Virus record (IMG/VR): IMGVR_UViG_2534681675_000025 | Location: 1 to 57,091 of that record | Reading direction: 5' to 3' (one strand) | DNA from: a virus | Taxonomy: Duplodnaviria > Heunggongvirae > Uroviricota > Caudoviricetes | Length of the DNA: 57,091 bases | In this document: piece by piece, positions 1 through 17,247 of the stretch | How the letters are laid out: the number at the start of each line of letters is the position of its first letter | How positions within the stretch are numbered: the stretch's first letter is position 1 | The notes under the pieces: generated by a model | What the model saw: the letters and a program-made list of their open reading frames with translations, nothing else | Database searches by the model: none | What the model was told of the DNA's origin: nothing | Program-made: the position numbers and the translations under genes

Positions 1-3000
1 AGCAGTAAGGGGCATACCCCGCGCGAAGCGAAGGATAACCTGAAGTCCACGCAGTTGCTGAGTGTGATCGATGCCATCAGCGAAGGGCCGGTTGAAGGTC
101 CGGTGGATGGATTAAAAAGCGTGCTGCTGAACAGTACGCCGGTGCTGGACAGTGAGGGGAATACCAATATCTCCGGTGTCACGGTGGTGTTCCGTGCAGG
201 TGAGCAGGAGCAGACACCGCCGGAGGGATTTGAATCCTCCGGCTCCGAGACGGTGCTGGGTACGGAAGTGAAGTACGACACGCCGATTACCCGGACCATC
301 ACGTCTGCAAACATCGACCGTCTGCGCTTTACCTTCGGTGTGCAGGCACTGGTGGAAACCACCTCAAAAGGGGGGACCCGAATCCGTCGGAAGTCCGCCT
401 GCTGGTTCAGATACAACGTAACGGTGGCTGGGTGACGGAAAAAGACATCACCATTAAGGGAAAAACCACCTCACAGTATCTGGCCTCGGTGGTGGTGGGT
501 AACCTGCCGCCGCGCCCGTTCAGTATCCGGATGCGCAGGATGACGCCGGACAGCACTACAGACCAGCTGCAGAACAAAACGCTCTGGTCGTCATACACCG
601 AAATCATCGATGTGAAACAGGGCTACCCGAACACGGCACTGGTCGGTGTACAGGTGGACTCGGAGCAGTTCGGCAGCCAGCAGGTGAGTCGTAATTATCA
701 TCTTCGCGGGCGCATTCTGCAGGTGCCGTCGAACTATAACCCGCAGACGCGGCAATACAGCAGTATCTGGGACGGAACGTTTAAACCGGCATACAGCAAC
801 AACATGGCCTGGTGTCTGTGGGATATGCTGACCCATCCGCGCTACGGCATGGGGAAACGTCTTGGTGCGGCGGATGTGGATAAATGGGCGCTGTATGTCA
901 TCGGCCAGTACTGCGACCAGTCAGTGCCGGACGGCTTTGGCGGCACGGAGCCGCGCATCACCTGTAATGCTTACCTGACAACACAGCGTAAGGCGTGGGA
1001 TGTGCTCAGTGATTTCTGCTCGGCGATGCGCTGTATGCCGGTATGGAACGGGCAGACGCTGACGTTCGTGCAGGACCGACCGTCGGATAAGGTGTGGACC
1101 TATAACCGCAGTAATGTGGTGATGCCGGATGATGGCGCGCCGTTCCGCTACAGCTTCAGCGCCCTGAAAGACCGCCATAATGCCGTTGAGGTGAACTGGA
1201 TTGACCCGAACAACGGCTGGGAGACGGCGACAGAGCTTGTGGAGGACACGCGGGCCATTGCCCGTTACGGTCGTAATGTCACGAAGATGGATGCTTTTGG
1301 CTGTACCAGCCGGGGGCAGGCACACCGCGCCGGGCTGTGGCTGATTAAAACAGAACTGCTGGAAACGCAGACCGTGGACTTCAGCGTGGGCGCAGAAGGG
1401 CTTCGCCATGTGCCGGGCGATGTCATTGAAATCTGTGATGATGACTATGCCGGTATCAGCATCGGCGGGCGCGTGCTGGCGGTAAACAGCCAGACCCGGA
1501 CGCTGACGCTCGACCGTGAAATCACTCTGCCATCCTCCGGTACCACGCTGATAAGCCTGGTTGACGGAAGTGGCAATCCGGTCAGCGAGGAGGTTCAGTC
1601 CGTCACCGACGGCGTGAAGGTGAAAGTGAGCCGTGTTCCTGACGGCGTTGCTGAATACAGCGTGTGGGGGCTGAAGCTGCCGACGCTGCGCCAGCGCCTG
1701 TTCCGCTGCGTGAGTATCCGTGAGAACGACGACGGCACGTATGCCATCACTGCCGTGCAGCATGTACCGGAAAAGAAGCCATCGTGGATAACGGGGCGCA
1801 CTTTGACGGCGACCAGAGCGGCACGGTGAATGGTGTCACACCGCCAGCGGTGCAGCACCTTACCGCCGAAGTCACCGCAGACAGCGGGGATATCAGGTAC
1901 TGGCCCGCTGGGACACGCCGAAGGTGGTGAAGGGCGTGAGCTTCATGCTTCGCCTGACCGTGGCAGCGGACGACGGCAGTGAGCGGCTGGTCAGCACAGC
2001 CCGGACAACGGAAACCACATACCGCTTCAGACAACTGGCGCTGGGGCGTTATATGCTGACGGTCCGGGCGGTAAATGCCCGGGGGCAGCAGGGTGATCCG
2101 GCGTCGGTATCGTTCCGGATTGCGGCACCGGCAGCGCCTGTCACTATTGAACTGATACCGGGGTATTTTCAGATAACGGCAGTCCCGCGTCTTGCGGTGT
2201 ATGACCCGACGGTGCAGTTTGAGTTCTGGTTCTCGGAAAATCAGATTACGGATATCCGGCAGGTTGAAACCACAGCCCGCTATCTCGGTACGGCGATGTA
2301 CTGGACAGCTGCCAGTATTAATATCAGGCCGGGCCATGATTATTACTTTTATATCCGCAGTGTGAACATCGTCGGTAAATCAGCGTTTGTGGAAGCTGTC
2401 GGCCAGCCGGTTAATGATGCTGAGGTGTATCTCAATTTTTTTGAAGGGAAAATAAACAGCACCCTGCTGGGGCAGGAGCTGAACGATCGTATTAATGCCT
2501 CGGCATTGCGCAGTGAAGTTGAGCAACTGGAGGATGAGATCAATCAGCAGATAGAGAGTGATATTGCTGAAGTGACCCAAAAAATCGGGGAGACAGAAAA
2601 CAGCCTCACGCAGCTGGTTGCGAAAAAAAATGATGAGCTGTCACTGGGTATATCACAGGTGAGCCAGAGAGTGGATAACGTCAGCAGCGAACTCACGCAG
2701 ACGGTCAGTCAGAGTAATGAGGAGAATGCACGCCAGATAGCGCAGGTTCGCCAGTATGTGGATCAAAAAAGCAGTGAAATCATGACGACAACGGACCAGA
2801 AGCTGGGAGATCAGGAGGCCACCATCCAGCAGATACAAAAGGTTCAGACGGACACCAGTAATAACCTGAACAGTATGTGGGCCGTGAAACTGCAGCAGAT
2901 GCAGGATGGTCGCCTTTATATTGCGGGTATCGGTGCCGGTATTGAGAACACCCCCGACGGCATGCAGAGTCAGGTGCTGCTGGCGGCAGACAGGATTGCG

Positions 3001-3690
3001 ATGATTAATCCTGCAAATGGCAACACAAAACCGATGTTTGTTGGTCAGGGTGATCAGATATTCATGAATGAAGTGTTCCTGAAATATCTGACGGCTCCCA
3101 CCATTACCAGCGGCGGTAATCCTCCTGCATTTTCCCTGACACCGGACGGAAAGCTGACCGCTAAAAATGCCGATATCAGCGGTAACGTGAATGCGAACTC
3201 CGGGACGCTCAACAACGTCACGATAAATGAGAACTGTCAGATTAAGGGGAAACTGTCAGCCAATCAGATTGAAGGCGATATTGTCAAAACGGTGGGAAAA
3301 TCCTTTCCGAGAAATGGCAGTTATGCCAGCGGTACAATAACGGTCACTGTGTACGATGACCAGGCTTTTGACCGTCAGATAGTAATCCCACCCGTTCTGT
3401 TTCGCGGTGGTAAGCATGAAAACTTTAACAGCAACAACCAACAGTCATACTGGTACTCAACCTGTAAGCTGCAGGTGCTGAAGAACGGACAGGAAATCTT
3501 TCAGCAACCCGCGACGGATGTCAGCAGGGTATTTTCATCCGTCATCGATATGCCTGCCGGACACGGGCATGTCACCCTGACTTTCAATGTTTCTTCATAT
3601 GGTGCTAATAACTGGACGCCAACGACCAGTATCAGCGACCTTCTTGTTGTCGTGATGAAGAAATCAACAGCCGGTATCAGTATCAGCTGA
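1..3690 (+). pseudogene. J: Lambda J-like host specificity (tail tip) gene, 5' end outside window, reading frame broken at about 372-395, 1771-1774 and 1890
   Basis: Three consecutive ORFs (55-435, 432-1829, 1924-3690) in frames 1/0/1 together read as one J-like protein (SVIDAISEGP..., KTTSQYLASVV..., C-terminal fibre domain); frame switches sit at G/A homopolymer runs. Confidence 0.8.
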
Positions 3691-3708
3691 ATTTTATAAC
3701 CCCAATAC

Positions 3709-3732
3709 GGGCGCCAGAAATGGCGCTTTTTT
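3709..3732 (+). terminator. Putative rho-independent terminator after J
   Basis: GC stem (gggcgcc/ggcgc) followed by a T-run. Confidence 0.45.
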
Positions 3733-3756
3733 ATTGCAGAAAAGCGAGAGGTAATT

Positions 3757-4356
3757 ATGCGTAAATTATGTGCTGTTATTCTGTCTGCAGTAGTCTGGCT
3801 GGTCGCCGCTGGTACGCCAGCGAGTGCAGCAGAGCATCAGTCCACACTAAGCGGCGGGTATCTTCAGTCCCATACTGATATGCCCGGAAACGATGACCTG
3901 AAGGGCATTAACGTGAAATACCGTTATGAATTTACGGACACGCTGGGGCTGGTGACGTCATTCAGCTATGCAGGAGACAAGAATCGCCAGCTGACCCGTT
4001 ACAGTGATACCCGCTGGCATGAAGATTCCGTTCGTAACCGCTGGTTCAGCGTAATGGCGGGGCCGTCTGTGCGCGTGAATGAATGGTTCAGCGCGTATGC
4101 GATGGCGGGTGTGGCTTACAGCCGTGTATCGACTTTCTCCGGGGATTATCTCCGCGTAACTGACAATAAGGGGAAAACGCACGATGTGCTGACCGGAAGT
4201 GATGACGGTCGCCGCAGCAACACGTCTCTGGCGTGGGGAGCTGGCGTGCAGTTTAACCCGACCGAATCCGTGGCTATTGATGTCGCTTATGAAGGCTCCG
4301 GCAGTGGCGACTGGCGCACTGACGGTTTCATCGTGGGTGTCGGTTATAAATTCTGA
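3757..4356 (+). CDS. lom: Lom/Ail-family outer membrane beta-barrel protein
   Basis: 199 aa, signal peptide, aromatic C-terminal YKF, position between J and stf as in lambda. Confidence 0.85.
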   Translation: MRKLCAVILSAVVWLVAAGTPASAAEHQSTLSGGYLQSHTDMPGNDDLKGINVKYRYEFTDTLGLVTSFSYAGDKNRQLTRYSDTRWHEDSVRNRWFSVMAGPSVRVNEWFSAYAMAGVAYSRVSTFSGDYLRVTDNKGKTHDVLTGSDDGRRSNTSLAWGAGVQFNPTESVAIDVAYEGSGSGDWRTDGFIVGVGYKF

Positions 4357-4382
4357 TTAGCCAGGTAACACAGTGTTATGAC

Positions 4383-4409
4383 AGCCCGCCGGTTCAGGCG
4401 GGCTTTTTT
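4383..4409 (+). terminator. Rho-independent terminator after lom
   Basis: agcccgcc-ggttcag-gcgggc stem followed by tttttt. Confidence 0.6.
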
Positions 4410-4414
4410 GTGGG

Positions 4415-6510
4415 GTGAATATGGCAGTAAAGATTTCAGGTGTCCTGAAGGACGGAGCGGGTGAGCCTGTCGTAAACTGTGCGATTGAATTGCGTGCCAG
4501 AAGAACCAGTCCGACAGTTGTGGTTAATATTGTGGCAACCTGTCTTACGGGAAGTGATGGCGGGTATACTATTAATGCTGAGCCGGGATTTTATGATGTA
4601 TTTTTGTCCCGCTCAGGGCATCCTCCTGTAAAGGCGGGGGAAATTTATGTTGCACCGACAGATGAGCCGGATACGCTGAATGCTTTTCTGGATGCACCAA
4701 AGGAGGGTGATTTACGCCCTGAGGTAATGAAGCGTTTTGAGGAAATGATAAATACCGTTTTTCGCTTGTCTGAGCAGGTGGTCAGTGACAGGGAGAGAGC
4801 AGAAACAGCTGCTGATGATGCAATCAATGCAGCAACATCTGCGGCGGTTAGTAAGGATGAGGCAGAAGAGCTAAAAAATCAGACACAGCAGAGCGCCGAA
4901 GCTGCAGCCGGAAACGCACAGCAGACGGCACAGGATGTGACGACAACCGCAACGGCCCGTGATGATGCGGAACGTTTTGCGGGTGAGGCAGAAAACAGCG
5001 CACAGTCATCAGGCACATCGCGGGATGAATCAGTCGATGCCGCCGAACGTGCCCGCCTTTATCATAATGCCGCATCATCAGCTGCAACCAGCGCGGAAAA
5101 TGCAGCAAATGCTGCACTCGGGCATGAAAACAGCGCCGCTGAATACGCCCGACAGGCTAAAGCCAGCCAGGATGCAGGTGCAGACAATGCGCAGGAAGCG
5201 AAACAGTACAGGGATGAGGCGCAGCAGATAGTTGATGACCTGAATGCAACAAATGCCTCCACGACAGAAAAAGGTCTGGTGCAACTGTGTAGTGATACGG
5301 ACAACGACAGCGAGGAACTGGCTGCCACGCCAAAGGCTGTCAAAACCGTCATGGACGAGACGAAACAAAAGCGCCACTGGACAGCCCGGCCTTCACCGGC
5401 ACCCCAACCACCCCAACCCCACCGGATGATGCCGCCGGTCTGGAAGCAGCGAACGCAGCGTTTGTGCGCAAACTGCTTGCTGCGCTGGTTGGCTCATCGC
5501 CGGAAGTTCTGGACACCCTGAACGAGCTGGCAGCGGCGCTGGGCAATGACCCGAACTTTGCGACGACAATCACAAACGCGCTGGCAGGCAAACAACCGCT
5601 TAATGACGTCTTAACGGCAATCAGCGCACTGACGCAACGGGCAGATAATCTTCTGTACTTCAATACAGACGGGAATGCCTCACTGTCTCTGCTGTCAGAG
5701 AAGGGCCGCGCATTGCTGGCGCATGACACGGCTGAAGCCATGCGCACGGAGCTTGAGCTGAGCGCGGCTGCGACGATGGAACCCCAGAGTGATATCCGTG
5801 ACCGCACACCGGGCAGGCTGGCCCTGTCCGGGATGTATGGGTTTGGACAGGCATTCACCAGCGCCGAAGCTCTGTCATTTAACGGACAGGCTGATTTCGT
5901 TATATGGCTGCAGACAGTCACCCCGGGGCGTTATGCGGTCAGTATTGCGGACTCCTCCACGCTGCTGGTGGGCACCACGAAATTTAACGGTATCATTGAT
6001 GTGATGTGGTCACCCTCTGATAACGATGGTTCAGACTCAGCGCGTAAATTCAAAACGCTGCTGTACTACAACCAGTATTACGAGGATGAGCACAGCATAC
6101 ATTGTATGCGTTATCGCTACAGTGGTAACAGCTGGAATGCAACATCAAGCCTTATTGTGTATGACGGCAACTCCCTGGCATATCTGATGTCCTCAACCGC
6201 CGGTAATGGTCCGTTCTCATATTACCAATACCCGGCCGTCGGTGTGCCGATTATGGCGGTATATCAGGGAGAAAGTTTTGGTGAAAATGCTTCTCTGGGA
6301 CTCGGTGATACTGTGCCGGGTTCCCGTCTTGGTCCTCTGGCCATGAGTGCACAGGTTAGTGATACAGGGACATACGCATCCTCACCGCAGGTTGTGATTG
6401 GCGGTGCCGGTGAATACAACTTCCCCGGTCGTTACACGGCGCTTTCGGGCCTGGGTAACAATTATGGTACTCAGCGTGGCTTTATCGGTCTTTTTGTACG
6501 CATTGAGTAA
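4415..6510 (+). pseudogene. stf: Side tail fibre gene (lambda Stf-like), single frameshift in an A-run at 5367-5370
   Basis: ORFs 4415-5521 and 5464-6510 are N- and C-terminal parts of one fibre; frame 1 upstream of 5464 reads KAPLDSPAFTGTPTTP..., continuous with the downstream ORF; A4 where A5 would keep the frame. Confidence 0.75.
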
Positions 6511-7097
6511 TGAGGAAATCAGGCATGAAAATCAGAGCGGTGAAAGGTATCAGAAACGCACATTATCTTGAAAATGGTGCGGTTGACTGCGAGGTGTTAT
6601 TTGAAGGTGAAACGGAGTTTGCCCTGTATACCGCCATACAGGATGACACGGCCCCGACAGGCCAGCACATCTGGCAGGAGCTGCAAAGCGGGAAATGGGG
6701 CGAAATCGCCCCGTTCACTGTCACGCCTGAACTTATTGCAGCGGCAAAGGATGCCAAAAGGCGGGAAATTGAGGCATGGCGCGACAGTCAGGAAAACGTT
6801 GAGTTTATTTTCACGTTTGATGGCCGTCGTTTTGATGGCGGAAAAACCTCGCAGTCACGCCTTGCGCCCGTGGTTGCAACAGCGCAGGCCGGACTGCTTC
6901 CGGATGGTTTTTTCTGGACTGATGCGGATAATAACAACGTCGTACTGACCAGGGAGAAACTTATTGCGCTGAACGATGCCATGATGGTGGCCATGGTGGC
7001 GGAGGGCTTTAAAATCCACGAACGCCAGCGCGAGATGAAGGAACAACTGAATAATCTGGATGATTTGCGTTCAATCAGAGCGTTTGACGTGACGTAA
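6510..7097 (+). CDS. tfa: Tail fibre assembly protein (Tfa)
   Basis: 195 aa, start overlaps stf stop, Tfa-like sequence, position after stf. Confidence 0.85.
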   Translation: MRKSGMKIRAVKGIRNAHYLENGAVDCEVLFEGETEFALYTAIQDDTAPTGQHIWQELQSGKWGEIAPFTVTPELIAAAKDAKRREIEAWRDSQENVEFIFTFDGRRFDGGKTSQSRLAPVVATAQAGLLPDGFFWTDADNNNVVLTREKLIALNDAMMVAMVAEGFKIHERQREMKEQLNNLDDLRSIRAFDVT

Positions 7098-7143
7098 TTG
7101 GTAGGTTGCGTCATGTTGAATTGTTACTCTTAGTTACAAATAG

Positions 7144-7177
7144 AAAAGCCTCTGACTTCACAATCAGAGGCTTTTTT
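7144..7177 (+). terminator. Rho-independent terminator after tfa
   Basis: aaaagcctctga...tcagaggctttttt hairpin plus T-run. Confidence 0.6.
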
Positions 7178-7295
7178 GAAATGCACGTGCATTTTGCGTG
7201 TATATTTTTGTCTTTTTTAAGTCCGCTTACTGTCTGGTCAGTGTCCGTAAGTGGCTGTTTTTATTGCCGCTGTCCGGTTGCAGTCCTATCAAAAG

Positions 7296-7340
7296 TGGTG
7301 GAGCTGGCGGGAGTTGAACCCGCGTCCGAAATTCCTACAT
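7296..7340 (-). other. ssrA: 3'-terminal 45 nt of ssrA (tmRNA) only; prophage attachment-site core, not a full tmRNA gene
   Basis: Reverse complement reads ATGTAGGAATTTCGGACGCGGGTTCAACTCCCGCCAGCTCCACCA (T-arm, acceptor 3' strand, CCA); upstream sequence diverges from tmRNA. Confidence 0.75.
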
Positions 7341-7472
7341 ACCATTTTTACTATAACAAAAACATGAACTTATGTTTAAAATCAGTATGTTAGTATTATT
7401 TTGTGTTTGTCTGTTTTACGCATTTTTAATGCTCTGCCGCCAAAATGCCGCCACTGGTTTTGCTTGGGAGAC

Positions 7473-8993
7473 TTATTCAGGCTTTAATTTATTGATAATA
7501 GAATCTACCATTTTAATGCCTGCCTCATTGACTATGACTGAATTGACTACTCTATCAAAATAGTCTTCTATATGGTGGGAAAATAGGAAAGCAGCACTTG
7601 ATGGTTTTTTGTTCTTTTCAACAGCAGATTGCAAGACTTCATGAGGCGGAATTTTAAACCTTTTGCATGATGCAATGAGATATTCAAACTCTTCAAATGA
7701 TAGACAAAAAATATTCTCTGTAGGGATATGATAGTTATGTTTAAACTTGTCATATATCTTATTCATCTCATCTTTAGCATAAGTATTAGCTAGGATACTA
7801 CCATTGCCTAAGAAAAGGTTTTTATATGTAATGCAAATGATATATGAGTTAGCCCTGAATGGAGCTATTATTCGCTCATTAGAGTATATTTCTCGATTAA
7901 CTTCGTGAGATTGTTCGATTGCTTTTAATACCGATTTCTTTATTTTTCCTGCAATATCCTCAGGGCGTAATGTTACCATGCCTTTTTGGTGTATCTCAAC
8001 GCCTTTAGCATCAATGAAAATATTTGCCTCAGTATGTGGAATGAAATAATCAACTACTTTATTATCTTTAGGTAGTCGTTCTTTAAGGTATTTTTCGTTA
8101 TGAAAATCAATTTCGCTTTCTTTTAGTATTAATTCCAGTGCATTTTCAAATACATTTCCAAAGCTATCCATGAACTTCTCGGCATCAGTTCTTCTTAAAA
8201 GATCATATATGAACGTCTGTATGCTTGTTGAAGTCAGTTGTGTGTGTATCTGAAAATACTCTGAACCTTTTTTTATTAATGGTTTTTCAAGGAAAGGTGA
8301 TGATGAGTAGTATTCAAGCAAAGGTTTATCATAGGTTTTTGATTTGCAAAATGTAGATAGTTCATTGTAATTTATTGATATTGCATCAAGAAATTTCTCA
8401 ATGGTATTTCTAGGAATGATGTCAAATAATATAGTAAATGTATCTACATTCATTTTTCTCACGGGATGCTCTTCTGTTATGTGAGTTATTAATATGTAAG
8501 ATAGCTTAAGAAAGTCTTCGATAGATACATTCGTGATAGTAAAAAAACTTGTCTTTATTTTATGGTTTTTTTCAAGTTCTGAAAATAGAAAGACTTGTCT
8601 GCTAATTGTGTTTAGAGCGTCAATTTTCTGGTAGATTCCTTGTTGGTATAGATTATTTCTAATGAAGAAATGCATGCCATTCTTCCTCTCAAGACCGATA
8701 GGAATAATGTTCAAGGTTTCATAAGTTTTTTGGAAGAGTTTTATTGCTTGATTTTTATCGAGGATTTTGAATTTTTTATTCTTGCCAGTTACTGACGCAG
8801 ACCACTTTAGACATAAATTAACAATCCAAGGCATGTGTCGTAACATGTGGATATTATCTTCAAATTTTTGTAAGTTATATTGCATACAGAATTCGATAAA
8901 TAAATCAGGGGAATAACCTTGGATTTCTGAACGAATAGCATCCATTCTTAACTTTGCAACCGCATCAGATTGAATATCTAATTTTTGAATCAC
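7473..8993 (-). CDS. Hypothetical protein, 506 aa, strongly AT-rich cargo gene between att remnant and int
   Basis: Long uninterrupted ORF; composition much more AT-rich than flanking phage genes; no motif I can recognise by eye. Confidence 0.7.
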   Translation of the reverse strand: MIQKLDIQSDAVAKLRMDAIRSEIQGYSPDLFIEFCMQYNLQKFEDNIHMLRHMPWIVNLCLKWSASVTGKNKKFKILDKNQAIKLFQKTYETLNIIPIGLERKNGMHFFIRNNLYQQGIYQKIDALNTISRQVFLFSELEKNHKIKTSFFTITNVSIEDFLKLSYILITHITEEHPVRKMNVDTFTILFDIIPRNTIEKFLDAISINYNELSTFCKSKTYDKPLLEYYSSSPFLEKPLIKKGSEYFQIHTQLTSTSIQTFIYDLLRRTDAEKFMDSFGNVFENALELILKESEIDFHNEKYLKERLPKDNKVVDYFIPHTEANIFIDAKGVEIHQKGMVTLRPEDIAGKIKKSVLKAIEQSHEVNREIYSNERIIAPFRANSYIICITYKNLFLGNGSILANTYAKDEMNKIYDKFKHNYHIPTENIFCLSFEEFEYLIASCKRFKIPPHEVLQSAVEKNKKPSSAAFLFSHHIEDYFDRVVNSVIVNEAGIKMVDSIINKLKPE

Positions 8994-9005: not shown

Positions 9006-10019
9006 CTACAAATTATAAAGAGGATTTTTAGTCACCGCGTCTTCAAGGTGATCGGGCGAAAAGTGGGCGTAAATCATGGTCATTTTTATATCGGCATGAC
9101 CCAAAATATCACGCAGTACCAGTATGTTTCCGCCGTTCATCATAAAGTGACTGGCGAATGTATGGCGAAGCACGTGGGTGCATTGGCCCTCCGGTAGGTC
9201 AATACCGGCCCGCTTTACTGCCCGCTCAAAGGCTTTTCTGCATGGCGTGAATAACTTTCTTCTGTTTTTGGGGAGTTCATCATACAGATCCTGAGATATC
9301 GGCACAGTACGGTTTTTCTTGCCTTTTGTTTTTGTATAAGTAATTCGGTATTTCGATATTTGATGGCCCTGCAGATTTTCGGCTTCACTCCACCGTGCGC
9401 CAGTAGCCAGGCATATTTTTGCAATCATTAGTAAGCTAGGGCTTTGAGATTCAGCACATGCCGCCAACAGGCGCTTGATTTCGTCCGTGGAAAGAAAAGC
9501 CAGCTCACCTTCGGCAATTTTGAAGGTCGGAAGTCCTGCCAGCGGGTTTGGTGCTGACCAGTGTCCTAGTTTTTTTAATGTACCGAACACAGATGATAGA
9601 TTGCGCTGTTCAAGGTTTACCGTGCGGGGCTTAACGGGCGACATCAGCGTGCCATCTTCATTTCGCACTTCACCTTTTAGCCGTGCTTCGCGGTATTTCG
9701 TAAAGTCACCGGCAGTCAGCTCTGAAGCGATGGGATCGCCCAGACCATTACAGATAATTCCAAGTTTCGCCATGAGTCGCTTGGGGTCTGCGAGTGTTTG
9801 ACCATACAGGGAATACCACAGCTCAATTAATTCTGATAGGTGTCGCCGATCTTCCTTTTCTCCCAGCCAAGGTTTCTTGTTTACCTCGTCCATGGTGAAA
9901 TTCTCAAACGCAATGGCTTCGCCTTTCGTCGCAAATTGTTTGCGTACGCGTTTGCCATCTCGCCCGTTTGGGTAGCATTCACATAACCACTTTCCGTTCG
10001 GCTGTTTTCTGATGGTCAT
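9006..10019 (-). CDS. int: Tyrosine integrase (P2 Int family)
   Basis: 337 aa; C-terminal HVLRHTFASHF...GH...MIYAH catalytic region; adjacent to repressor. Confidence 0.9.
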   Translation of the reverse strand: MTIRKQPNGKWLCECYPNGRDGKRVRKQFATKGEAIAFENFTMDEVNKKPWLGEKEDRRHLSELIELWYSLYGQTLADPKRLMAKLGIICNGLGDPIASELTAGDFTKYREARLKGEVRNEDGTLMSPVKPRTVNLEQRNLSSVFGTLKKLGHWSAPNPLAGLPTFKIAEGELAFLSTDEIKRLLAACAESQSPSLLMIAKICLATGARWSEAENLQGHQISKYRITYTKTKGKKNRTVPISQDLYDELPKNRRKLFTPCRKAFERAVKRAGIDLPEGQCTHVLRHTFASHFMMNGGNILVLRDILGHADIKMTMIYAHFSPDHLEDAVTKNPLYNL

Positions 10020-10020
10020 A

Positions 10021-10653
10021 TCAAAGGCTCTTAATGATTTTCAGTGCGCGGCCTATTACCTCAATGTCATCCAGTTCGCACTCAAACGATGAATCATCCT
10101 GATGCACTACTAATCTGTTTCCCGGGAGTCGTGTCAATTTTACAATGCTTTTTATCCCGTCGATGTCCACTAACCACGTACCATTTACTGGTGGTGTTTG
10201 GTTGCGATCTATTAAATAAGAATCACCAGAAGTAGTCACCAGCAGCAGGTTGCTTGAGTCTGAGGGGAGTATGCTGCTATCAATGATTGCTTTTCCAGCA
10301 TCGATCAGCAAACCTCCGTTGAGAGTTGCCTTGTCAATTTCAGGAGATACAAGCTCCGAAAGAGGTTTAACTTTGCTAGAGTTCACGGAATTGATATTTT
10401 TTTTAGGGTCAATGTTTGAACCTGGATCGCCCTGTCCGGTAGTTAGCCACAGTAAAGAAACTCCTGTTTCCAAAGCGCACTGAATCACCCATTCTGCAGG
10501 AAAACTATCTCTTAAGTATCTGTTTGCCATAGTGCTTTTTGATGCGCCCAAGTGATCGCAAAGTTGCTGTCTGGACTTGAAATCATAGGCTGCCATTAGC
10601 CTATGGATAGCCTCTCTTCCCCCTGTATTCTCGCCAGCTTTTACTTGTATCAT
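10021..10653 (-). CDS. cI: CI-type prophage repressor (186 CI-like, two-domain)
   Basis: 210 aa, N-terminal HTH-like region, divergent from the lytic promoter, immediately upstream of int. Confidence 0.75.
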   Translation of the reverse strand: MIQVKAGENTGGREAIHRLMAAYDFKSRQQLCDHLGASKSTMANRYLRDSFPAEWVIQCALETGVSLLWLTTGQGDPGSNIDPKKNINSVNSSKVKPLSELVSPEIDKATLNGGLLIDAGKAIIDSSILPSDSSNLLLVTTSGDSYLIDRNQTPPVNGTWLVDIDGIKSIVKLTRLPGNRLVVHQDDSSFECELDDIEVIGRALKIIKSL

Positions 10654-10665
10654 TTTTTAATCCTG

Positions 10666-10717
10666 TTGACGTATCAAATATTGGATCGTAGTATCTTGGT
10701 GTATCAAATATTGAATC
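10666..10717 (+). promoter_or_regulatory. Rightward lytic promoter (pR-like) with two 17-bp direct-repeat operator copies
   Basis: TTGACG (10666-10671), 17-nt spacer, TAGTAT (10689-10694); repeats gtatcaaatattgRatc at 10671-10687 and 10701-10717. Confidence 0.55.
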
Positions 10718-10772
10718 AAATAAAACAAGATAAAACGACGTAAACCAAACCTTAATCGAGAGATACTGCACT

Positions 10773-11021
10773 ATGAGCAACGACATTTCAATTCGTGTAC
10801 CAAAAGTGATGGCGACACCAGCTGAGTTCGCGGAATGGGAAGGCCGCTCTCGCGGTTCGGTATATCAAATGATTCATAATGGTAAACTCGCTAAATTCTT
10901 GGAAAGAAAAGAAAAACCGAAAGACAGAGTATGTATACGTTACCTTGAGTACAAAAAGGAACAAGTCAGGAAAAACATGGGCCAATCCAATTTCAACTTT
11001 AATGTCATCGTTGGTGACTAA
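10773..11021 (+). CDS. Apl/Cox-like small DNA-binding protein (excision/transcriptional control)
   Basis: 82 aa, first gene of the rightward operon opposite the repressor, as apl in 186 or cox in P2. Confidence 0.55.
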   Translation: MSNDISIRVPKVMATPAEFAEWEGRSRGSVYQMIHNGKLAKFLERKEKPKDRVCIRYLEYKKEQVRKNMGQSNFNFNVIVGD

Positions 11022-11053
11022 GTTCAATTATGAGAACTTTCTAAGGGGGCAGC

Positions 11054-11563
11054 ATGTTTGATTACAAGATTTCCAAACATCCGCATTTTGATGAAGCCTG
11101 TAGAGCTTTTGCACTACGTCACAATATGGCAAAGCTGGCAGAACGTGCAGGAATGAATGTTCAGACACTGCGAAACAAACTCAATCCAGAGCAACCGCAT
11201 CAGCTCACCGCACCAGAAATCTGGTTGCTTACCGATCTGACTGAAGATTCAACGTTGGTAGACGGTTTTCTGGCACAGATTCATTGTCTGCCATGTGTTC
11301 CGATTAATGAGGTGGCAAAAGAGAAACTGCCGCATTACGTCATGAGTGCAACTGCAGAGATCGGGCGTGTTGCTGCAGGTGCGGTATCTGGCGATGTAAA
11401 AACCAGTGCAGGTCGTCGTGATGCTATCAGCAGCATTAACTCTGTAACACGACTGATGGCGCTGGCGGCTGTTTCATTGCAGGCCCGTTTACAGGCTAAT
11501 CCTGCGATGGCAAGTGCAGTTGATACTGTAACTGGCCTCGGTGCGTCATTCGGTTTGCTGTGA
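11054..11563 (+). CDS. cII: Phage 186 CII-like regulatory protein
   Basis: 169 aa, begins MFDYKISKHPHFDEACRAFALRHNMAKLAERAGMNVQTLRNKLNPEQPH, matching 186 CII as I recall it. Confidence 0.75.
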   Translation: MFDYKISKHPHFDEACRAFALRHNMAKLAERAGMNVQTLRNKLNPEQPHQLTAPEIWLLTDLTEDSTLVDGFLAQIHCLPCVPINEVAKEKLPHYVMSATAEIGRVAAGAVSGDVKTSAGRRDAISSINSVTRLMALAAVSLQARLQANPAMASAVDTVTGLGASFGLL

Positions 11564-11570
11564 GGTGCTT

Positions 11571-11771
11571 ATGCTGACGAAAGAACCATCATTTGCATCG
11601 CTGCTGGTAAAACAAAGCCCGGCAATGCACTACGGTCACGGCTGGATCATGGGGGAGGATGGTAAACGCTGGCATCCGTGCCGTTCACAAGATGAATTGC
11701 TGGCAGAACTATCTACGAAAAAACGGGGGAACAAATGGCTATTGAAGGCGCTGCGGCGACTGTTCCATTAA
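11571..11771 (+). CDS. Hypothetical early protein
   Basis: ATG at 11571 directly after cII stop; 66 aa. Confidence 0.45.
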   Translation: MLTKEPSFASLLVKQSPAMHYGHGWIMGEDGKRWHPCRSQDELLAELSTKKRGNKWLLKALRRLFH

Positions 11772-12076
11772 GCCCCGGTGAACGCCTGAATGGACTTAAC
11801 CATATTGCGGAGTTAAGGGCGAAAGTATTTGGCCTGAATATTGAGTCAGAGCTTGAGCGGTTTATTAAAGATATGCGTGATCCACGGGATATCAATAACG
11901 AACAAAATAAACGGGCACTGGCTGCTATATTCTTTATGGCAAAAATTCCAGCTGAACGTCATAGCATCAGCATTAATGAGCTGACCACTGACGAAAAGCG
12001 GGAGTTGATTAAAGCAATGAATCATTTTCGTGCAGTGGTGAGCTTATTTCCCAGACGGCTAACCATGCCGAATTAA
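11735..12076 (+). CDS. Hypothetical early protein
   Basis: 113-aa ORF in the early operon. Confidence 0.5.
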   Translation: MAIEGAAATVPLSPGERLNGLNHIAELRAKVFGLNIESELERFIKDMRDPRDINNEQNKRALAAIFFMAKIPAERHSISINELTTDEKRELIKAMNHFRAVVSLFPRRLTMPN

Positions 12077-12143
12077 CCAACTAATGAAATTAATGGCGTA
12101 AACCCGCCGGGTATCCCTTTATCTAAATTCAGGAGAATTGATT

Positions 12144-12377
12144 ATGCGTAATATTGAAACCCTCACGACTAAAACCGGACCGGATGATGCAGGGCTTAAT
12201 ATTTTACTGACAGAGGCTCGTCTGGAAGAACGCCGGGCAAGGGCTGAAGCAATGGCAGCTCGCCTTGATAGCCTGGCGTGTCATATCACATCCCGCCAGC
12301 TAAACCACGTCGAAGCAGCAGAACTACTGCGTGTAACTGCTGAAGCAATCCAGAACGAAGCGCAGGAGATCCACTAA
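12144..12377 (+). CDS. Hypothetical early protein
   Basis: ATG at 12144 preceded by AGGAGA; 77 aa. Confidence 0.5.
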   Translation: MRNIETLTTKTGPDDAGLNILLTEARLEERRARAEAMAARLDSLACHITSRQLNHVEAAELLRVTAEAIQNEAQEIH

Positions 12378-12604
12378 TGGCTGATGCAATGGATCTTGTA
12401 CAGCAGCGCGTTGAAGAAGAACGCCAGCGCCATATCCGTGCTGCCCGTGCCAAAACGCCGGGCGTGTCCCGCGTGCTTTGCATTGAGTGTGAAGCGCCAA
12501 TTCCGCCAGCACGCCGCCGCGCCATTCCAGGTGTGCAGCTTTGCATTACCTGTCAGGAAATCGCAGAACTGAAAGGCAAACATTACAACGGAGGTGCTGT
12601 ATGA
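12377..12604 (+). CDS. TraR/DksA-family C4 zinc-finger protein
   Basis: 75 aa with CIECEAPI...CITCQ (four Cys); common small early gene in P2-like phages. Confidence 0.7.
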   Translation: MADAMDLVQQRVEEERQRHIRAARAKTPGVSRVLCIECEAPIPPARRRAIPGVQLCITCQEIAELKGKHYNGGAV

Positions 12605-13458
12605 GCACCATCCTGAAATGGGCGGGAAATAAAACCGCCATTATGTCCGAACTGAAAAAACACCTTCCTGCTGGCCCGCGACTGGTTGAACCTTTCGCGG
12701 GTTCCTGTGCTGTGATGATGGAGACGGATTACCCCAGCTATCTGGTTGCGGATATTAATCCTGATTTAATCAACCTCTATAAAAAGGTTGCCGCTGATTG
12801 TGAATCGTTTATATCTCGCGCCAGAGTTTTATTTGAGATCGCAAACAGGGAGGTGGCTTATTACAACATAAGGCAGGAGTTTAATTACTCCACTGAAATT
12901 ACTGATTTCATGAAAGCGGTATATTTCCTGTATCTCAATCGTCACGGTTACCGTGGTTTATGTCGCTATAACAAGAGCGGGCATTTCAACATTCCCTACG
13001 GTAATTATAAAAATCCGTATTTCCCTGAAAAAGAAATTCGCGCATTTGCAGAAAAAGCCCAGCGGGCAACGTTTATCTGCGCCAGCTTTGATGAAACGCT
13101 GGCGATGTTGAAGGCGGGGGATGTGGTGTATTGCGATCCGCCGTATGACGGCACGTTTTCCGGTTATCACACTGACGGCTTCACTGAAGATGACCAGTAT
13201 CACCTGGCATCCGTTCTTGAACATCGGTCATCAGAAGGACATCCGGTCATTGTTTCTAACAGTGACACATCCCTGATCCGTTCGCTGTATCGCAATTTTA
13301 CTCACCACTACATCAAGGCAAAACGCAACATCGGTGTGGCAGCTGGCGAGGGTAAATCAGCAACAGAAATCATTGCTGTTTCCGGGCCGCGCTGCTGGGT
13401 GGGATTTGATTATTCGCGTGGCGTGGACAGTTCTGCCGTGTACGGAGTACGTGCATGA
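12601..13458 (+). CDS. dam: DNA adenine methyltransferase (Dam-like, N6-adenine)
   Basis: Begins [11 protein letters not shown]; contains DPPY motif ([10 protein letters not shown]) and N-terminal SAM-binding region FAGSCAV. Confidence 0.85.
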
Positions 13459-15869: not shown

Positions 15870-15962
15870 TTACGCTGGTTAACAATTCGTGCTCTTAATA
15901 ATACCAGGCATATCAGGCTGATAAGCGTAAAAAAAACGTTTTACATCAGTAAGATTATTATA

Positions 15963-15982
15963 TACTGTAAATATAAACAGTG
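15963..15982. promoter_or_regulatory. Candidate LexA (SOS) box upstream of the DinI-like module
   Basis: tactgtaaatataaacagtg = CTGT-N8-ACAG consensus, about 45 bp upstream of the 16024 ORF. Confidence 0.55.
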
Positions 15983-16023
15983 GTTATACATACAGCATTG
16001 CGTGTGGTGTCATAGGAGGAAAG

Positions 16024-16212
16024 ATGCAGGACTATTTTTTGGAGTCTTTGAAGCTCCAGCGCATTGATTTTTTTCTTAAGCTTGTAGCGGCTAGTGAGTG
16101 TAGTGATGAAGAGAAGGGGCTGGCTCTGCAGTGGGTTTCTGAATTGACTGATGAACTCATGGCAAAAATCAGAAGCCACGAATACAACCGCTCAATGGAT
16201 GTCATCAGCTGA
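16024..16212 (+). CDS. Hypothetical small protein, possibly Tum-like antirepressor N-terminal part
   Basis: 62-aa ORF downstream of the LexA box and immediately upstream of the DinI-like gene. Confidence 0.4.
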   Translation: MQDYFLESLKLQRIDFFLKLVAASECSDEEKGLALQWVSELTDELMAKIRSHEYNRSMDVIS

Positions 16213-16222
16213 GGTGACTTTT

Positions 16223-16456
16223 ATGCGCATTGAAATAATGATCGATAAAGAGCAGAAGATTAGCCAGTCTACCCTGGACGCCCTTGAATCCGAGCTTTAC
16301 CGCAATCTGCGCCCCCTGTATCCCAAAACGGTAATCCGTATCCGTAAAGGTAGCTCTAACGGTGTGGAACTGACCGGACTGCAACTGGACGAAGAAAGAA
16401 AACAAGTGATGAAAATTATGCAGAAGGTGTGGGAAGACGACAGCTGGCTGTATTGA
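16223..16456 (+). CDS. DinI-family protein
   Basis: 77 aa, MRIEIMIDKEQ...VWEDDSWLY, resembles DinI (MRIEVTI...WESADDWF). Confidence 0.75.
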   Translation: MRIEIMIDKEQKISQSTLDALESELYRNLRPLYPKTVIRIRKGSSNGVELTGLQLDEERKQVMKIMQKVWEDDSWLY

Positions 16457-16569
16457 TTTTGTCAATAGACGCTTGTTTTTACTAATCAAAAAGGGTTACA
16501 TATGAGTGAGAGGCGATGTCAATCAGATATCGCCTTGTTTTTTGTCAAGAAAAGAATAATAGGCTAAAA

Positions 16570-17247
16570 ATGAAAATTAATAATGTAGCGTTACCAATAT
16601 CTCTTGCTGTAATCCTAACTGGTTGCGTGCCACATGCTTCTAACCGAAATATCACTGCTATTGAAGTGGTGAAGCCTGCTATTGGGCAAAGTGCTACCGC
16701 CTACATGGGCGATCCCATTATCACATCTGCTACTGGATTTAAAACGGACGTACTAGAACTTGGTGCGGCTAATGGTGCATTGTCTTCTATCGCTGCTGGT
16801 ACATATTGCAGTGAGGGGAATGGAATTTACCGCAATTATCATAACCCTCAAGCTGTTGCGTTAAAAAATCTCTATGGGCAAATCGGTAACTATGTTGATT
16901 ATGTTAGTTACGATGCTGCAAAAAATGAGATATCACCGCCAAATGGTACTTCTTATACTGCATCAGAAATTTCTATCAAACGTGTTCCTGATGGGCTGTG
17001 TCGAGTTAGTAACTCATTGGTTAAGACTATCGAATACAATGGAAATGCAGGCGGTGTAATGAAGTTCACCTATCGTGAATTTGCAAACGATATGGCTCGT
17101 GCAGCATTTACAACAGATTTTTCTGTAGATTCTAAGGGAAGTGACGTTATCGCTTACAAAGGTGCCAAGTTCAAAGTGAACAAGGCTGATAACTCGTCTA
17201 TTTCTTATACAATTATTTCTGGCTTTGACAAGGCTGTCACGTTCTAG
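16570..17247 (+). CDS. Predicted lipoprotein, function unknown (cargo)
   Basis: MKINNVALPISLAVILTGC lipobox signal; 225 aa; lies between the replication gene and cos. Confidence 0.7.
   Translation: MKINNVALPISLAVILTGCVPHASNRNITAIEVVKPAIGQSATAYMGDPIITSATGFKTDVLELGAANGALSSIAAGTYCSEGNGIYRNYHNPQAVALKNLYGQIGNYVDYVSYDAAKNEISPPNGTSYTASEISIKRVPDGLCRVSNSLVKTIEYNGNAGGVMKFTYREFANDMARAAFTTDFSVDSKGSDVIAYKGAKFKVNKADNSSISYTIISGFDKAVTF

What the first reader, a model, noticed from the sequence alone, without database searches (positions are those of the whole stretch)
7296..7340. tmRNA 3' end fragment marks a prophage attachment site between two unrelated prophages
A 45-nt copy of the ssrA 3' end (T-arm, acceptor strand, CCA) lies on the minus strand with no upstream tmRNA body. 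ssrA is a known integration target for enterobacterial prophages (for example CP4-57 in E. coli K-12). Here the fragment sits between the lambdoid tail module on one side and the P2-family int-proximal cargo gene on the other, suggesting sequential or tandem integration at ssrA.
Basis: partly seen in the sequence, partly recalled or inferred. Interest (0 to 1): 0.5.

Follow-up and report, generated by a model that had tools for sequence, protein, structure and literature searches.

The report
Shared prophage attachment scar at ssrA
A 45-base leftover of the tmRNA gene's 3' end is the shared attachment-site junction between a lambda-like and a P2-like prophage inserted one after the other at E. 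coli ssrA; this is a correct but ordinary finding.

Summary
Window 7296-7340 (minus strand) is an exact copy of the last 45 nt of E. coli ssrA (T-arm, 3' acceptor strand, CCA), with no tmRNA body. It occurs once in the window.

The left flank is the tail-side attP arm of ssrA-integrating lambdoid phages: 60/60 identical to free phage LMessi and 210/210 to an Stx2g prophage abutting intact ssrA. The right flank is the int-side attP arm of 186/Fels-2-like Peduoviridae (free phage Cartapus; a complete prophage in strain MFDS1019527). The lambdoid core is the terminal 27 nt, nested inside the P2-like phage's 45-nt core. The site is therefore a hybrid of lambdoid attR and P2-like attL. Each phage occupies ssrA alone in other strains, and four of 5,426 complete E. 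coli genomes carry the same hybrid junction.

No intact ssrA lies in the window. The P2-like prophage is joined, exactly at a 26-bp DNA-invertase crossover site in its tail-fibre gene, to a second P2-like prophage whose integrase always sits at the pheL site. This implies a ~55-kb inversion. The source contig continues into pheL-pheA, and ssrA is predicted ~18 kb beyond the window, in inverted orientation.

Tandem prophages at ssrA are already documented, so interest is low. The invertase-mediated inter-prophage inversion is the more unusual by-product.

The parts
7296..7340 (-). Orphan ssrA 3'-end fragment (T-arm, 3' acceptor strand, CCA; retains U357). It is the 45-nt att core of the P2-like phage and serves as a hybrid of lambdoid attR and P2-like attL.
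   Evidence: Exact 45-nt identity to intact ssrA, ending abruptly. Partial Rfam tmRNA match. Single copy in the window.
7296..7322 (-). Nested 27-nt core used by the lambdoid phage (TGGTGGAGCTGGCGGGAGTTGAACCCG on the + strand).
   Evidence: A 27-nt repeat lies at the int-side end of the Stx2g lambdoid prophage (L006 10597-10623). The identity run in LMessi attP is also 27 nt.
7098..7295 (.). Tail-side attP arm of the lambdoid phage. It supplies the sequence downstream of ssrA when the phage sits next to the intact gene, and it contains a hairpin/T-run at about 7147-7180.
   Evidence: 100% identical over 210 nt to the lambdoid|ssrA junction in L001, and 60/60 to the attP arm of free phage LMessi. 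Window 7121-7340 (this arm plus the 45-nt core) is about 86% identical to CP-1639 and PhiR12 phages.
1..7097 (+). Lambdoid prophage tail end: J (runs off the left end; split into three reading frames), Lom 3757-4356, side tail fibre 4415-6510 (two overlapping frames), DUF4376 protein 6510-7097.
   Evidence: Pfam hits to the J domains, Ail_Lom and DUF4376. Colinear at 95% with the tail end of an Stx2g prophage at ssrA. About 91% identical to lambda-like phages.
7341..7472 (.). Int-side attP arm of the P2/186-like phage.
   Evidence: Identical to the distal arm in L002 and L004. Homologous in free phages Cartapus, SEN8 and RE-2010. The phage record OK490395 starts exactly at window 7341.
7473..8993 (-). 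gapS1 cargo gene in the att-int slot of the P2-like prophage.
   Evidence: NCBIfam NF047931, 428.5 bits against a cutoff of 320. The same slot holds different genes in Cartapus, tcmA_3 and 2014C-3011.
9006..10019 (-). Tyrosine integrase of the ssrA-integrating P2-like prophage (P2#1).
   Evidence: Pfam Int_N and Phage_integrase. Same position as in the complete prophage in L004.
10021..10653 (-). 186-type CI repressor of P2#1.
   Evidence: Pfam PF07022 and PF16452.
10654..30740 (.). Remainder of the retained half of P2#1: cII, fil, dam, replication endonuclease, portal, terminase, capsid, lysis, baseplate, and the tail-fibre constant part.
   Evidence: 100.0% identical to the MFDS1019527 prophage over window 7296-30754, apart from an IS21 present in that strain.
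30729..30754 (.). Hybrid 26-bp invertase crossover site, TTCTCGCATACC|TTGGTTTGGGAGAA. The switch from P2#1 to P2#2 lies within 30741-30750.
   Evidence: The left half matches L004 37560-37571. The right half matches the invertase-proximal site of native P2#2 copies. It matches the documented 26-bp sites of EC958 (PMC4134206).
30755..32546 (.). Invertible tail-fibre segment of P2#2: variable end, tfa 31210-31803 (+), tfa' 31775-32209 (-), and the second variable end.
   Evidence: 99.9% identical to L012, and up to 2676 nt of exact identity with L031.
32547..32572 (.). Second 26-bp crossover site (TTCCCCCAAACCAAGGTAATCAAGAA), inside the tail-fibre gene of P2#2.
   Evidence: Identical in L012.
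32573..57091 (.). Int-proximal half of a second P2-like prophage (P2#2), inverted relative to its native orientation. Its integrase is at 56069-57091 (+).
   Evidence: 96-98% identical to prophages at raiA|pheL. The exact integrase lies next to pheL in 10 of 10 places shown. The source contig continues into pheL-pheA.

Best explanation
The 45-mer is the middle att junction of a tandem prophage array at the E. coli tmRNA gene.

How the junction forms. Both phages use tyrosine integrases that recombine an attP copy of the ssrA 3' end with the chromosomal gene. The incoming phage supplies a new 3' end to ssrA and displaces the old one to the far side of the prophage. The lambdoid phage uses the terminal 27 nt. 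The 186/Fels-2-like P2-family phage uses the terminal 45 nt, which contain those 27 nt.

What tandem integration leaves. After both integrations, one core copy sits between the two prophages. It is flanked by the lambdoid tail-side arm on one side and the P2-like int-side arm on the other, so it is at once lambdoid attR and P2-like attL. It is not a functional tmRNA.

Shown: the identity and extent of the core, both arm identities, each single-occupancy state, and recurrence of the hybrid junction.

Not resolved: which phage integrated first.

Why the partner site is missing. The partner site of the P2-like phage (intact ssrA plus the ogr-side arm) is absent from the window because a serine DNA invertase recombined two sites. 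One is the crossover site in this phage's tail-fibre gene. The other is the invertase-proximal site of a second P2-like prophage at raiA|pheL, which natively lies about 18 kb away in direct orientation. The result is an inversion of about 55 kb that includes ssrA-smpB.

Shown: the crossover interval of 10 bp or less at the site centre, the native 'before' architectures, and the contig continuing into pheL-pheA.

Inferred: that the event was an inversion, and that ssrA lies at about 75.3-75.6 kb of the contig on the + strand.

Inferred consequence. The lambdoid still has both of its att sites in direct orientation and could excise. The two att sites of P2#1 are now inverted and about 68 kb apart, so its integrase could only flip DNA and could not excise the prophage.
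For: - Exact 45-nt identity to the ssrA 3' end, with abrupt divergence on both sides.
- Only the T-arm to CCA part of the tmRNA model is matched, and there is no tmRNA gene in the window.
- Free phage Cartapus has attP = [ogr-side arm]-45 nt-[int-side arm]. Free phage LMessi has attP = [tail-side arm, 60/60 identical to the window]-27 nt-[int arm].
- Single-occupancy states: the P2-like phage alone, with 45-nt direct repeats and intact ssrA (L004); an Stx2g lambdoid alone, with a 27-nt repeat and intact ssrA (L001/L006); CP-1639 at ssrA.
- The same hybrid junction is present in 4 of 5,426 complete genomes, with the same gene order.
- Adjacent integrase, CI and GapS1 were verified.
- Literature: a 25-bp ssrA att in the P2-like phage PhiNP (PMC6456863); tandem prophages at ssrA in O157:H7 (PMC9997748); the tmRNA site hosts almost all prophage genera (PMC3603311).
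- Inversion: switch point at 30741-30750 inside a 26-bp site; sites match EC958 Table 3; native P2#2 layout with invertase; int2 always next to pheL; the source contig continues pheL-pheA-tyrA-aroF-yfiL-yfiR.
Against: - The window holds only one core copy. Neither the lambdoid int-side 27-nt copy nor the intact ssrA was read from the source genome; both are inferred from other strains and from synteny.
- The source is a draft contig (AEZI02000023.1), so an assembly error at the tail-fibre junction cannot be excluded absolutely. The only homology at that join is 26 bp.
- No experimental evidence for excision or integration of these particular phages was available.
- No complete E. coli genome in the collection has the H1-segment-H2 convergent tail-fibre junction.
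Confidence: 0.88

Rival explanations
1. Assembly artefact. The lambdoid|core|P2 join, or the P2#1|P2#2 tail-fibre join, is a chimeric contig made by collapsing repeats (the 45-nt core; the ~1.4-kb similar invertible segments), and the real genome has ordinary, separate prophages.
For: The source is a draft WGS contig. The invertible segments of the two P2-like phages are 97% identical over 1.4 kb. No complete genome shows the convergent tail-fibre junction.
Against: The att hybrid junction is seen independently in 4 complete genomes. The tail-fibre switch is not inside the 1.4-kb repeat but exactly at the 26-bp crossover site. That site is followed by about 400 nt unique to P2#2, so only 26 bp of homology exist at the join. 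The contig then runs on consistently for 26 kb into pheL-pheA. The chimeric tail-fibre protein is on record in 3 contigs.
Confidence: 0.07
2. The rearrangement at the tail fibre is general homologous recombination between the two P2-like prophages (as described for prophage-mediated inversions in O157), not invertase-mediated site-specific recombination.
For: The two prophages share 65-75% similar tail-fibre constant regions and 97% similar invertible segments in inverted orientation.
Against: The exchange point maps to 10 bp or less, spanning the central dinucleotide of a 26-bp invertase site. Flanking sequence on each side is unrelated between the two parents: the H1 constant region versus the invertase-gene flank. 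Homologous recombination would be expected inside the long 97% repeat.
Confidence: 0.08
3. The fragment is a decayed remnant of a duplicated or pseudogenised ssrA, or an old scar of a lost island, unrelated to the two flanking prophages.
For: Orphan tRNA or tmRNA 3' fragments can persist after island loss. The native ypjA-side flank shows weak similarity to the lambdoid arm.
Against: There is no host DNA on either side. Both flanks are phage attP arms to the base, and the 45 nt are 100% intact.
Confidence: 0.01
4. The fragment plus the downstream lambdoid arm forms a two-piece (permuted) tmRNA gene.
For: A sub-threshold Rfam tmRNA_permuted match of 43.4 bits against a gathering score of 47, at 7193-7358.
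Against: The match is below the curated threshold. Several acceptor-stem pairs are flagged as non-canonical. ARAGORN finds nothing. The same arm sits downstream of a normal one-piece ssrA in L001. Enterobacteria use one-piece tmRNA (general knowledge).
Confidence: 0.01

Closest known systems
ssrA-integrating P2-family phages (Fels-2/Felsduovirus, Citrobacter PhiNP, Escherichia phage Cartapus, Salmonella SEN8 and RE-2010)
   Same: The attP carries the ssrA 3' end next to int. Integration duplicates the core and reconstitutes ssrA. The int-side arm is 87-90% identical. PhiNP's published 25-bp core, TGGTGGAGCTGGCGGGAGTTGAACC, is contained in the fragment (PMC6456863).
   Different: The identity block here is 45 nt, not 25 nt. 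The cargo in the att-int slot is GapS1 rather than the 401-aa protein of Cartapus. The prophage is split by a later inversion.
Lambdoid prophages at ssrA (CP-1639, Stx2g prophage of MFDS1022581, PhiR12 phages, LMessi)
   Same: The tail end abuts ssrA through the same arm, which is 100% identical to MFDS1022581 and LMessi; window 7121-7340 (arm plus core) is about 86% identical to CP-1639. The core is 27 nt, and int lies at the far end.
   Different: Here the arm abuts only a 45-nt fragment followed by another phage, not the intact gene. Whether this lambdoid carries stx is unknown, because only its tail end is in the window.
Tandem prophage arrays at a shared attB in E. coli (described for thrW, ompW and ssrA in O157:H7; general model in Nakamura et al. 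2021)
   Same: Two phages sharing one attB are integrated side by side with a core copy between them (PMC9997748; PMC8112680).
   Different: The two phages belong to different families, with nested cores of different length. The array has been partly dismantled by an inversion.
CP4-57 at ssrA in E. coli K-12
   Same: An integrative element downstream of ssrA, with a displaced 3'-end copy at its far end (PMC10107115).
   Different: CP4-57 has a P4-type integrase. Its excision leaves ssrA lacking T357, whereas the fragment here is wild type and includes T357.
Din-family DNA invertase switches (Mu Gin, P1 Cin, e14 Pin; EC958 prophage tail-fibre switches)
   Same: 26-bp crossover sites with a central dinucleotide at the constant/variable boundary of the tail-fibre gene. 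A Resolvase+HTH_7 invertase gene lies adjacent in native copies.
   Different: The recombining sites belong to two different prophages about 55 kb apart, so the product is a chromosomal inversion that splits both prophages, not a 2-3 kb host-range switch.

Membership tests
Intact tmRNA gene (ssrA, Rfam RF00023) | 5' acceptor strand and tRNA-like domain, tag reading frame and pseudoknots upstream of the T-arm | tested here: not met
   ARAGORN finds no tmRNA. Rfam aligns only T-arm to CCA, at 30.5 bits against a gathering score of 47. Identity to ssrA stops after 45 nt.
Intact tmRNA gene (ssrA, Rfam RF00023) | T-arm, 3' acceptor strand and CCA end | tested here: met
   45/45 identity to E. coli ssrA positions 319-363.
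Prophage att junction in a tRNA/tmRNA gene | The core is an exact copy of the 3' end of the target gene | tested here: met
Prophage att junction in a tRNA/tmRNA gene | The same core with the same arm is present in the attP of free phage genomes | tested here: met
   Cartapus (45 nt plus int-side arm) and LMessi (27 nt plus tail-side arm, 60/60 identical).
Prophage att junction in a tRNA/tmRNA gene | A tyrosine integrase gene lies close to the junction | tested here: met
   Integrase at 9006-10019, Pfam Int_N and Phage_integrase. The lambdoid integrase lies outside the window but is present in the reference prophage L006.
Prophage att junction in a tRNA/tmRNA gene | A second core copy in direct orientation at the other end of the element, inside the intact gene | tested here: inconclusive
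   Met in reference strain L004, with 45-nt repeats 36 kb apart. Not present in the window. Predicted at about 75 kb of the source contig in inverted orientation, but not read.
Tandem prophage array at a shared attB | Two different prophages flank one core copy with no host DNA between them | tested here: met
Tandem prophage array at a shared attB | Each element is found alone at the same attB in other strains | tested here: met
   L004 and L002 for the P2-like phage alone; L001/L006 and L008 for the lambdoid alone.
Tandem prophage array at a shared attB | Three core copies in total in the genome (distal, middle, and the intact gene) | not testable with these tools
Din-family serine-invertase crossover (side finding) | A 26-bp imperfect palindrome with a central dinucleotide at the tail-fibre constant/variable boundary | tested here: met
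   Sites at 30729-30754 and 32547-32572, compared with EC958 Table 3.
Din-family serine-invertase crossover (side finding) | An adjacent Resolvase+HTH_7 invertase gene | tested here: inconclusive
   Present next to the sites in native prophages. Absent from the window, as the inversion model predicts.
Din-family serine-invertase crossover (side finding) | Both orientations coexist, or the event depends on the invertase | not testable with these tools
   This needs reads or an experiment.
GapS1 anti-phage protein family | Score above the NCBIfam NF047931 cutoff over the full model | tested here: met
   428.5 bits against a cutoff of 320, model positions 1-455 of 455. Defence activity was not tested.

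The most novel reading that the evidence does not exclude
The ~55-kb interval between the tail-fibre invertase sites of the two P2-family prophages is a reversible, invertase-driven 'mega-switch'. The interval carries ssrA-smpB and the core genes between ssrA and pheL.

- In one orientation both prophages are whole and excisable.
- In the other orientation, the one sequenced, both are split and locked in. Each tail-fibre constant region is then paired with a different variable end.
- In that second orientation the orphan 45-nt att core is also separated from ssrA.

Phage host-range invertases would then also control prophage mobility and local chromosome orientation.
Probability: 0.2. Interest if true: 0.5.

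Novelty: already known. Interest (0 to 1): 0.2.

Why it matters
The finding itself is routine. It correctly delimits two prophages and shows that ssrA in E. coli is a shared landing pad for unrelated phage families with nested cores (27 nt inside 45 nt).

Practical value:
- It gives base-exact prophage boundaries: the lambdoid ends at 7295/7322 and the P2-like phage starts at 7296/7341.
- It explains why annotation pipelines sometimes call a partial 'tmRNA' at such scars.
- The scar is wild type and includes U357. Excision using it would therefore not damage tmRNA, unlike CP4-57 excision in K-12.

The more instructive point is the secondary event. A tail-fibre DNA invertase appears to have recombined sites in two different prophages, inverting about 55 kb of chromosome including ssrA and locking both P2-like prophages in place. 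This illustrates how prophage-borne site-specific recombinases can reshape chromosomes and immobilise prophages.

Tried and rejected
- **Second core copy or intact ssrA in the window.** None was found at up to 3 mismatches for the 45-mer or a 20-mer, and ARAGORN and Rfam found no tmRNA gene. The explanation had to come from outside the window.
- **Permuted (two-piece) tmRNA reading of 7193-7358.** The Rfam match of 43.4 bits is below the gathering score of 47. Rejected, because the same arm lies downstream of a normal ssrA in L001.
- **Exact lambdoid|core|gapS1 junction over 2.8 kb in complete genomes.** None was found. A shorter 281-nt query then found 4 genomes with the hybrid junction.
- **First idea that the invertible segment in the window belonged to P2#1.** Corrected: it is 99.9% identical to P2#2-type copies and only 97% to P2#1.
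- **First guess that P2#2 in the source might sit at the leuZ locus, as in MFDS1019527.** Rejected, because the window's integrase is the pheL-site type.
- **Reading Williams 2002/2003 (PMC100330, PMC142792).** The papers are not held. What I say of them is from memory or from citing papers.
- **Look-up of the 950-aa replication protein.** It failed because of the wrong start codon; the 941-aa version worked.
- **Look-up of the reference tape-measure protein to reach ssrA on the source contig.** I ran no further search on this, because a 90%-cluster representative would probably not be the exact protein, and the local neighbourhood would be collapsed with ordinary loci.
- **Pfam search of the alternative cargo proteins.** No hits.

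Full report
**1. Observation**

Window 7296-7340 reads TGGTGGAGCTGGCGGGAGTTGAACCCGCGTCCGAAATTCCTACAT. Its reverse complement is the last 45 nt of E. coli tmRNA: the T-arm, the 3' acceptor strand and CCA.

- It is 45/45 identical to intact, annotated 363-nt ssrA genes fetched from three other E. coli records (L001, L004, L008). Identity ends abruptly at base 46.
- The Rfam tmRNA model aligns only its last ~45 positions, at 30.5 bits against a gathering score of 47.
- ARAGORN finds no tmRNA or tRNA in the 57-kb window. At gathering thresholds Rfam finds only C4 and isrK, far away.
- The 45-mer and an internal 20-mer occur once each, even with three mismatches allowed, against zero matches in shuffles.

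The fragment is therefore real. It is not chance, and it is not part of a mis-delimited gene.

**2. Surroundings**

To the left, on the + strand, is the tail end of a lambdoid prophage:
- J, which runs off the window start.
- Lom, 3757-4356.
- A side tail fibre, 4415-6510.
- A DUF4376 protein, 6510-7097.

This segment is about 91% identical to lambda-like phages. It is colinear at 95% with the tail end of an Stx2g prophage.

To the right, on the - strand, are:
- A GapS1-family gene, 7473-8993 (NCBIfam 428 bits against a cutoff of 320).
- A tyrosine integrase, 9006-10019.
- A 186-type CI, 10021-10653.

A 186/Fels-2-like early and late gene set follows.

**3. What the fragment is, at base level**

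I anchored five loci on the 45-mer.
- The 210 nt to the left in the window are 100% identical to the junction 'lambdoid tail end | intact ssrA' of strain MFDS1022581 (L001).
- Everything to the right of base 45 is identical to the far (int-side) junction of the P2-like prophage in strains ETEC4089 and MFDS1019527 (L002, L004).
- The only block common to all five loci is the 45 nt.

Free phage genomes settle the assignment.
- **Escherichia phage Cartapus (Peduoviridae).** Its attP is [ogr-side arm]-45 nt-[int-side arm]. The ogr-side arm equals the sequence downstream of intact ssrA in L004. The int-side arm equals the window sequence to the right of the fragment.
- **Escherichia phage LMessi.** Its attP is [tail-side arm]-27 nt-[int-side arm]. 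The tail-side arm is 60/60 identical to the window sequence to the left of the fragment.

The Stx2g lambdoid prophage of MFDS1022581 has exactly this 27-nt repeat (TGGTGGAGCTGGCGGGAGTTGAACCCG) at its int end, next to the ypjA-like gene.

The window site therefore consists of the lambdoid P' (tail-side) arm, a 27-nt lambdoid core nested in a 45-nt P2-like core, and the P2-like int-side arm. In conventional terms it is lambdoid attR and P2-like attL at once. There is no host DNA other than the core.

**4. Single and double occupancy in other strains**

- **P2-like phage alone (MFDS1019527, L004).** The order is ypjA-like gene | 45 nt | gapS1-int-CI … D-ogr | intact ssrA-smpB, with 45-nt direct repeats 36 kb apart. 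It is 100.0% identical to window 7296-30754, apart from an IS21 in that strain.
- **Lambdoid alone.** Examples are MFDS1022581 and the published CP-1639 record.
- **Both together.** A 281-nt query across the junction finds four of 5,426 complete E. coli genomes with the same hybrid junction. In tcmA_3 and 2014C-3011 the gene order is lambdoid tail | fragment | cargo-int-CI, with different cargo genes.

The literature already records several of these points:
- A 25-bp ssrA 3'-end att for the P2-like phage PhiNP, contained in the present core (PMC6456863).
- Prophages integrated in tandem at ssrA in O157:H7 (PMC9997748).
- The textbook model that phages sharing an attB integrate in tandem (PMC8112680).
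- The tmRNA locus as the most promiscuous prophage site in Escherichia and Salmonella (PMC3603311).

From my own knowledge, Williams (J Bacteriol 2003, 'Traffic at the tmRNA gene') described multiple and tandem islands at tmRNA genes. I could not retrieve that paper.

**5. Why there is no intact ssrA in the window**

*Where the first prophage stops.* The P2-like prophage (P2#1) is colinear with its complete relative only up to 30754, inside tail-fibre gene H. From about 32.5 kb to the window end lies the int-proximal half of a second, different P2-like prophage (P2#2) in the opposite orientation. Between the two lie two convergent full-length tail-fibre genes, 29693-31210 (+) and 32211-33692 (-), and two tail-fibre assembly genes.

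*The switch point.* The switch is exact.
- Native P2#2 copies are identical to the window rightwards from 30741 for up to 2676 nt, and not at all leftwards.
- P2#1 is identical leftwards up to 30750.

The 10-bp interval TTGGTTTGGG begins at the central TT of a 26-bp site, TTCTCGCATACC|TTGGTTTGGGAGAA. Its left half is the site in H of P2#1. Its right half is the invertase-proximal site of P2#2 (TTTTCTTAAACG|TTGGTTTGGGAGAA).

These sites match the 26-bp DNA-invertase crossover sites documented for P2-like prophage tail-fibre switches in EC958 (PMC4134206 Table 3). Native copies have a Resolvase+HTH_7 invertase next to the site.

*The 'before' state.* In four other assemblies the identical H2 protein is followed by tfa, tfa', a 169-aa variable fragment, the invertase and gpU. 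In the source contig that fragment is instead fused to the H constant region of P2#1.

*Geometry.*
- The exact P2#2 integrase lies next to pheL in 10 of 10 places shown, and in PEC178.
- From the shared gene yfjD in L001 and L005, a pheL-site prophage is natively in direct orientation with an ssrA-site prophage. The two are separated by about 18 kb of core genes.
- Recombination between the H-site of P2#1 and the invertase-proximal site of P2#2, which are inverted repeats in that geometry, inverts about 55 kb. The product is exactly the order seen: P2#1 int→H | segment | H←…int of P2#2, followed by pheL.

*The source contig.* The window is positions 2-57092 of NCBI draft contig AEZI02000023.1 (85,107 bp). 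L013 and L024 are 100% identical to it. The contig continues pheL-pheA-tyrA-aroF-yfiL-yfiR, as predicted.

*Prediction for ssrA.* By synteny, ssrA should lie at about 75.26-75.62 kb on the + strand, followed by the ogr-side half of P2#1. The contig end at 85.1 kb then falls inside the predicted second invertible segment, which is a natural place for an assembly to break. This last step is inference, because I could not fetch that part of the contig.

**6. Mechanism and consequences**

Shown:
- The nested cores and both arms.
- Each single-occupancy state.
- Recurrence of the hybrid junction.
- The site-specific nature of the tail-fibre join.

Inferred:
- Either the lambdoid integrated first and the P2-like phage then entered the reconstituted ssrA, or the P2-like phage integrated first and the lambdoid then used the displaced 45-nt copy. 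That copy still contains its 27-nt core. Both routes give the same product, and nothing in the sequence distinguishes them.
- The lambdoid retains a direct-repeat partner and could excise, leaving the 45-mer next to the ypjA-side flank.
- The two att sites of P2#1 are now inverted and about 68 kb apart, so its integrase cannot excise it. P2#2 is likewise split.

The fragment includes T357 of ssrA. Recombination with it would therefore restore a wild-type 3' end. This contrasts with CP4-57 excision in K-12, which yields ssrA lacking T357 (PMC10107115).

**7. Comparison with known systems and novelty**

The fragment fails the membership test for a tmRNA gene. It meets all locally testable criteria for a prophage att junction and for a tandem array at a shared attB. 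The 'second copy' criterion is met only in reference strains and is predicted for the source contig.

This is a correct reading of an already known phenomenon. I rate it 'already known', with low interest.

The side finding is less common. It is an apparent invertase-mediated recombination between tail-fibre switch sites of two different prophages, inverting a core-genome segment that contains ssrA. No complete genome in the collection shows this junction. It rests on known enzymology: Din-family invertases act in trans and at secondary sites (Iida and Hiestand-Nauer 1986/87, as cited in PMC4134206). It also comes from a draft contig. Whether the inversion is reversible is open.

**8. Rivals**

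- **Assembly chimera (0.07).** Unlikely, because only 26 bp of homology exist at the tail-fibre join and the att junction recurs in complete genomes.
- **Homologous recombination instead of invertase action (0.08).** Unlikely, because the exchange is at the site centre and not inside the 1.4-kb 97% repeat.
- **Decayed ssrA duplicate (0.01) and permuted tmRNA (0.01).** Both are contradicted by the arm identities and by the sub-threshold, poorly paired Rfam match.

Noticed in passing
window 30729-30754 and 32547-32572 (junction region 29693-33692): Two P2-family prophages are fused head-to-head at a 26-bp DNA-invertase crossover site in their tail-fibre genes. This leaves two convergent full-length tail-fibre genes sharing one invertible segment and no invertase gene between them. 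It implies a ~55-kb chromosomal inversion including ssrA-smpB, or less likely an assembly chimera. No complete E. coli genome in the collection has this junction.
   Followed up: yes
window 7473-8993 (-); L007 2665-3870; L010 7281-8486; L011 7276-8307: The slot between att and int of these ssrA-integrating P2-like phages holds different cargo in relatives. It holds GapS1 here. Cartapus has a 401-aa protein (annotated RES) and tcmA_3 also has a 401-aa protein there; 2014C-3011 has a 343-aa protein. None of the three alternatives has a Pfam hit. The slot looks like a variable accessory or defence hotspot.
   Followed up: partly
window 52742-52829 (-) and 52865-52939 (-): C4 antisense RNA (79 bits) and isrK (62 bits) are matched above Rfam gathering scores. 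They lie side by side in the early region of the second P2-like prophage, between the ash/derepression-type genes.
   Followed up: no
window 1-3690 and 4415-6510: The lambdoid J gene is broken into three reading frames (up to 435, 432-1829, 1924-3690). The side tail-fibre gene is in two overlapping frames (4415-5521, 5464-6510). Either the lambdoid prophage is defective in tail genes, or the draft assembly has indel errors.
   Followed up: partly
L011 7115-7291 (NZ_CP027591.1): NCBI's annotation pipeline calls a 177-nt 'tmRNA ssrA' at the equivalent orphan fragment in strain 2014C-3011. This is an annotation artefact at att scars.
   Followed up: no
window 7341 onward; OK490395 and 11 sibling records: Twelve records labelled 'UNVERIFIED: Klebsiella phage Kp48xx' (35,561 bp each) are 99.8% identical to this E. 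coli prophage. They start exactly at the base after the 45-nt core. They are probably prophage predictions cut at att, and the Klebsiella host attribution is worth checking.
   Followed up: no
window ~47816-49091 (-); NZ_CP183151.1 (H69): The second P2-like prophage carries a ParM/StbA-type partition pair. A 129-kb record typed as a plasmid contains 90% of this region. This hints at a phage-plasmid lifestyle or a mis-typed record.
   Followed up: no
window 7255-7295 versus L002/L004 distal flank: The last ~45 nt of the lambdoid tail-side arm are about 70% similar to the native ypjA-side sequence downstream of the att core. This suggests the phage arm descends from captured host sequence downstream of ssrA.
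   Followed up: partly
L006 27360-28601 (NZ_CP169399.1): The closest complete relative of the window's lambdoid tail end and att arm is an Stx2g-converting prophage. Whether the window's lambdoid carries stx cannot be seen, because only its tail end is present.
   Followed up: no
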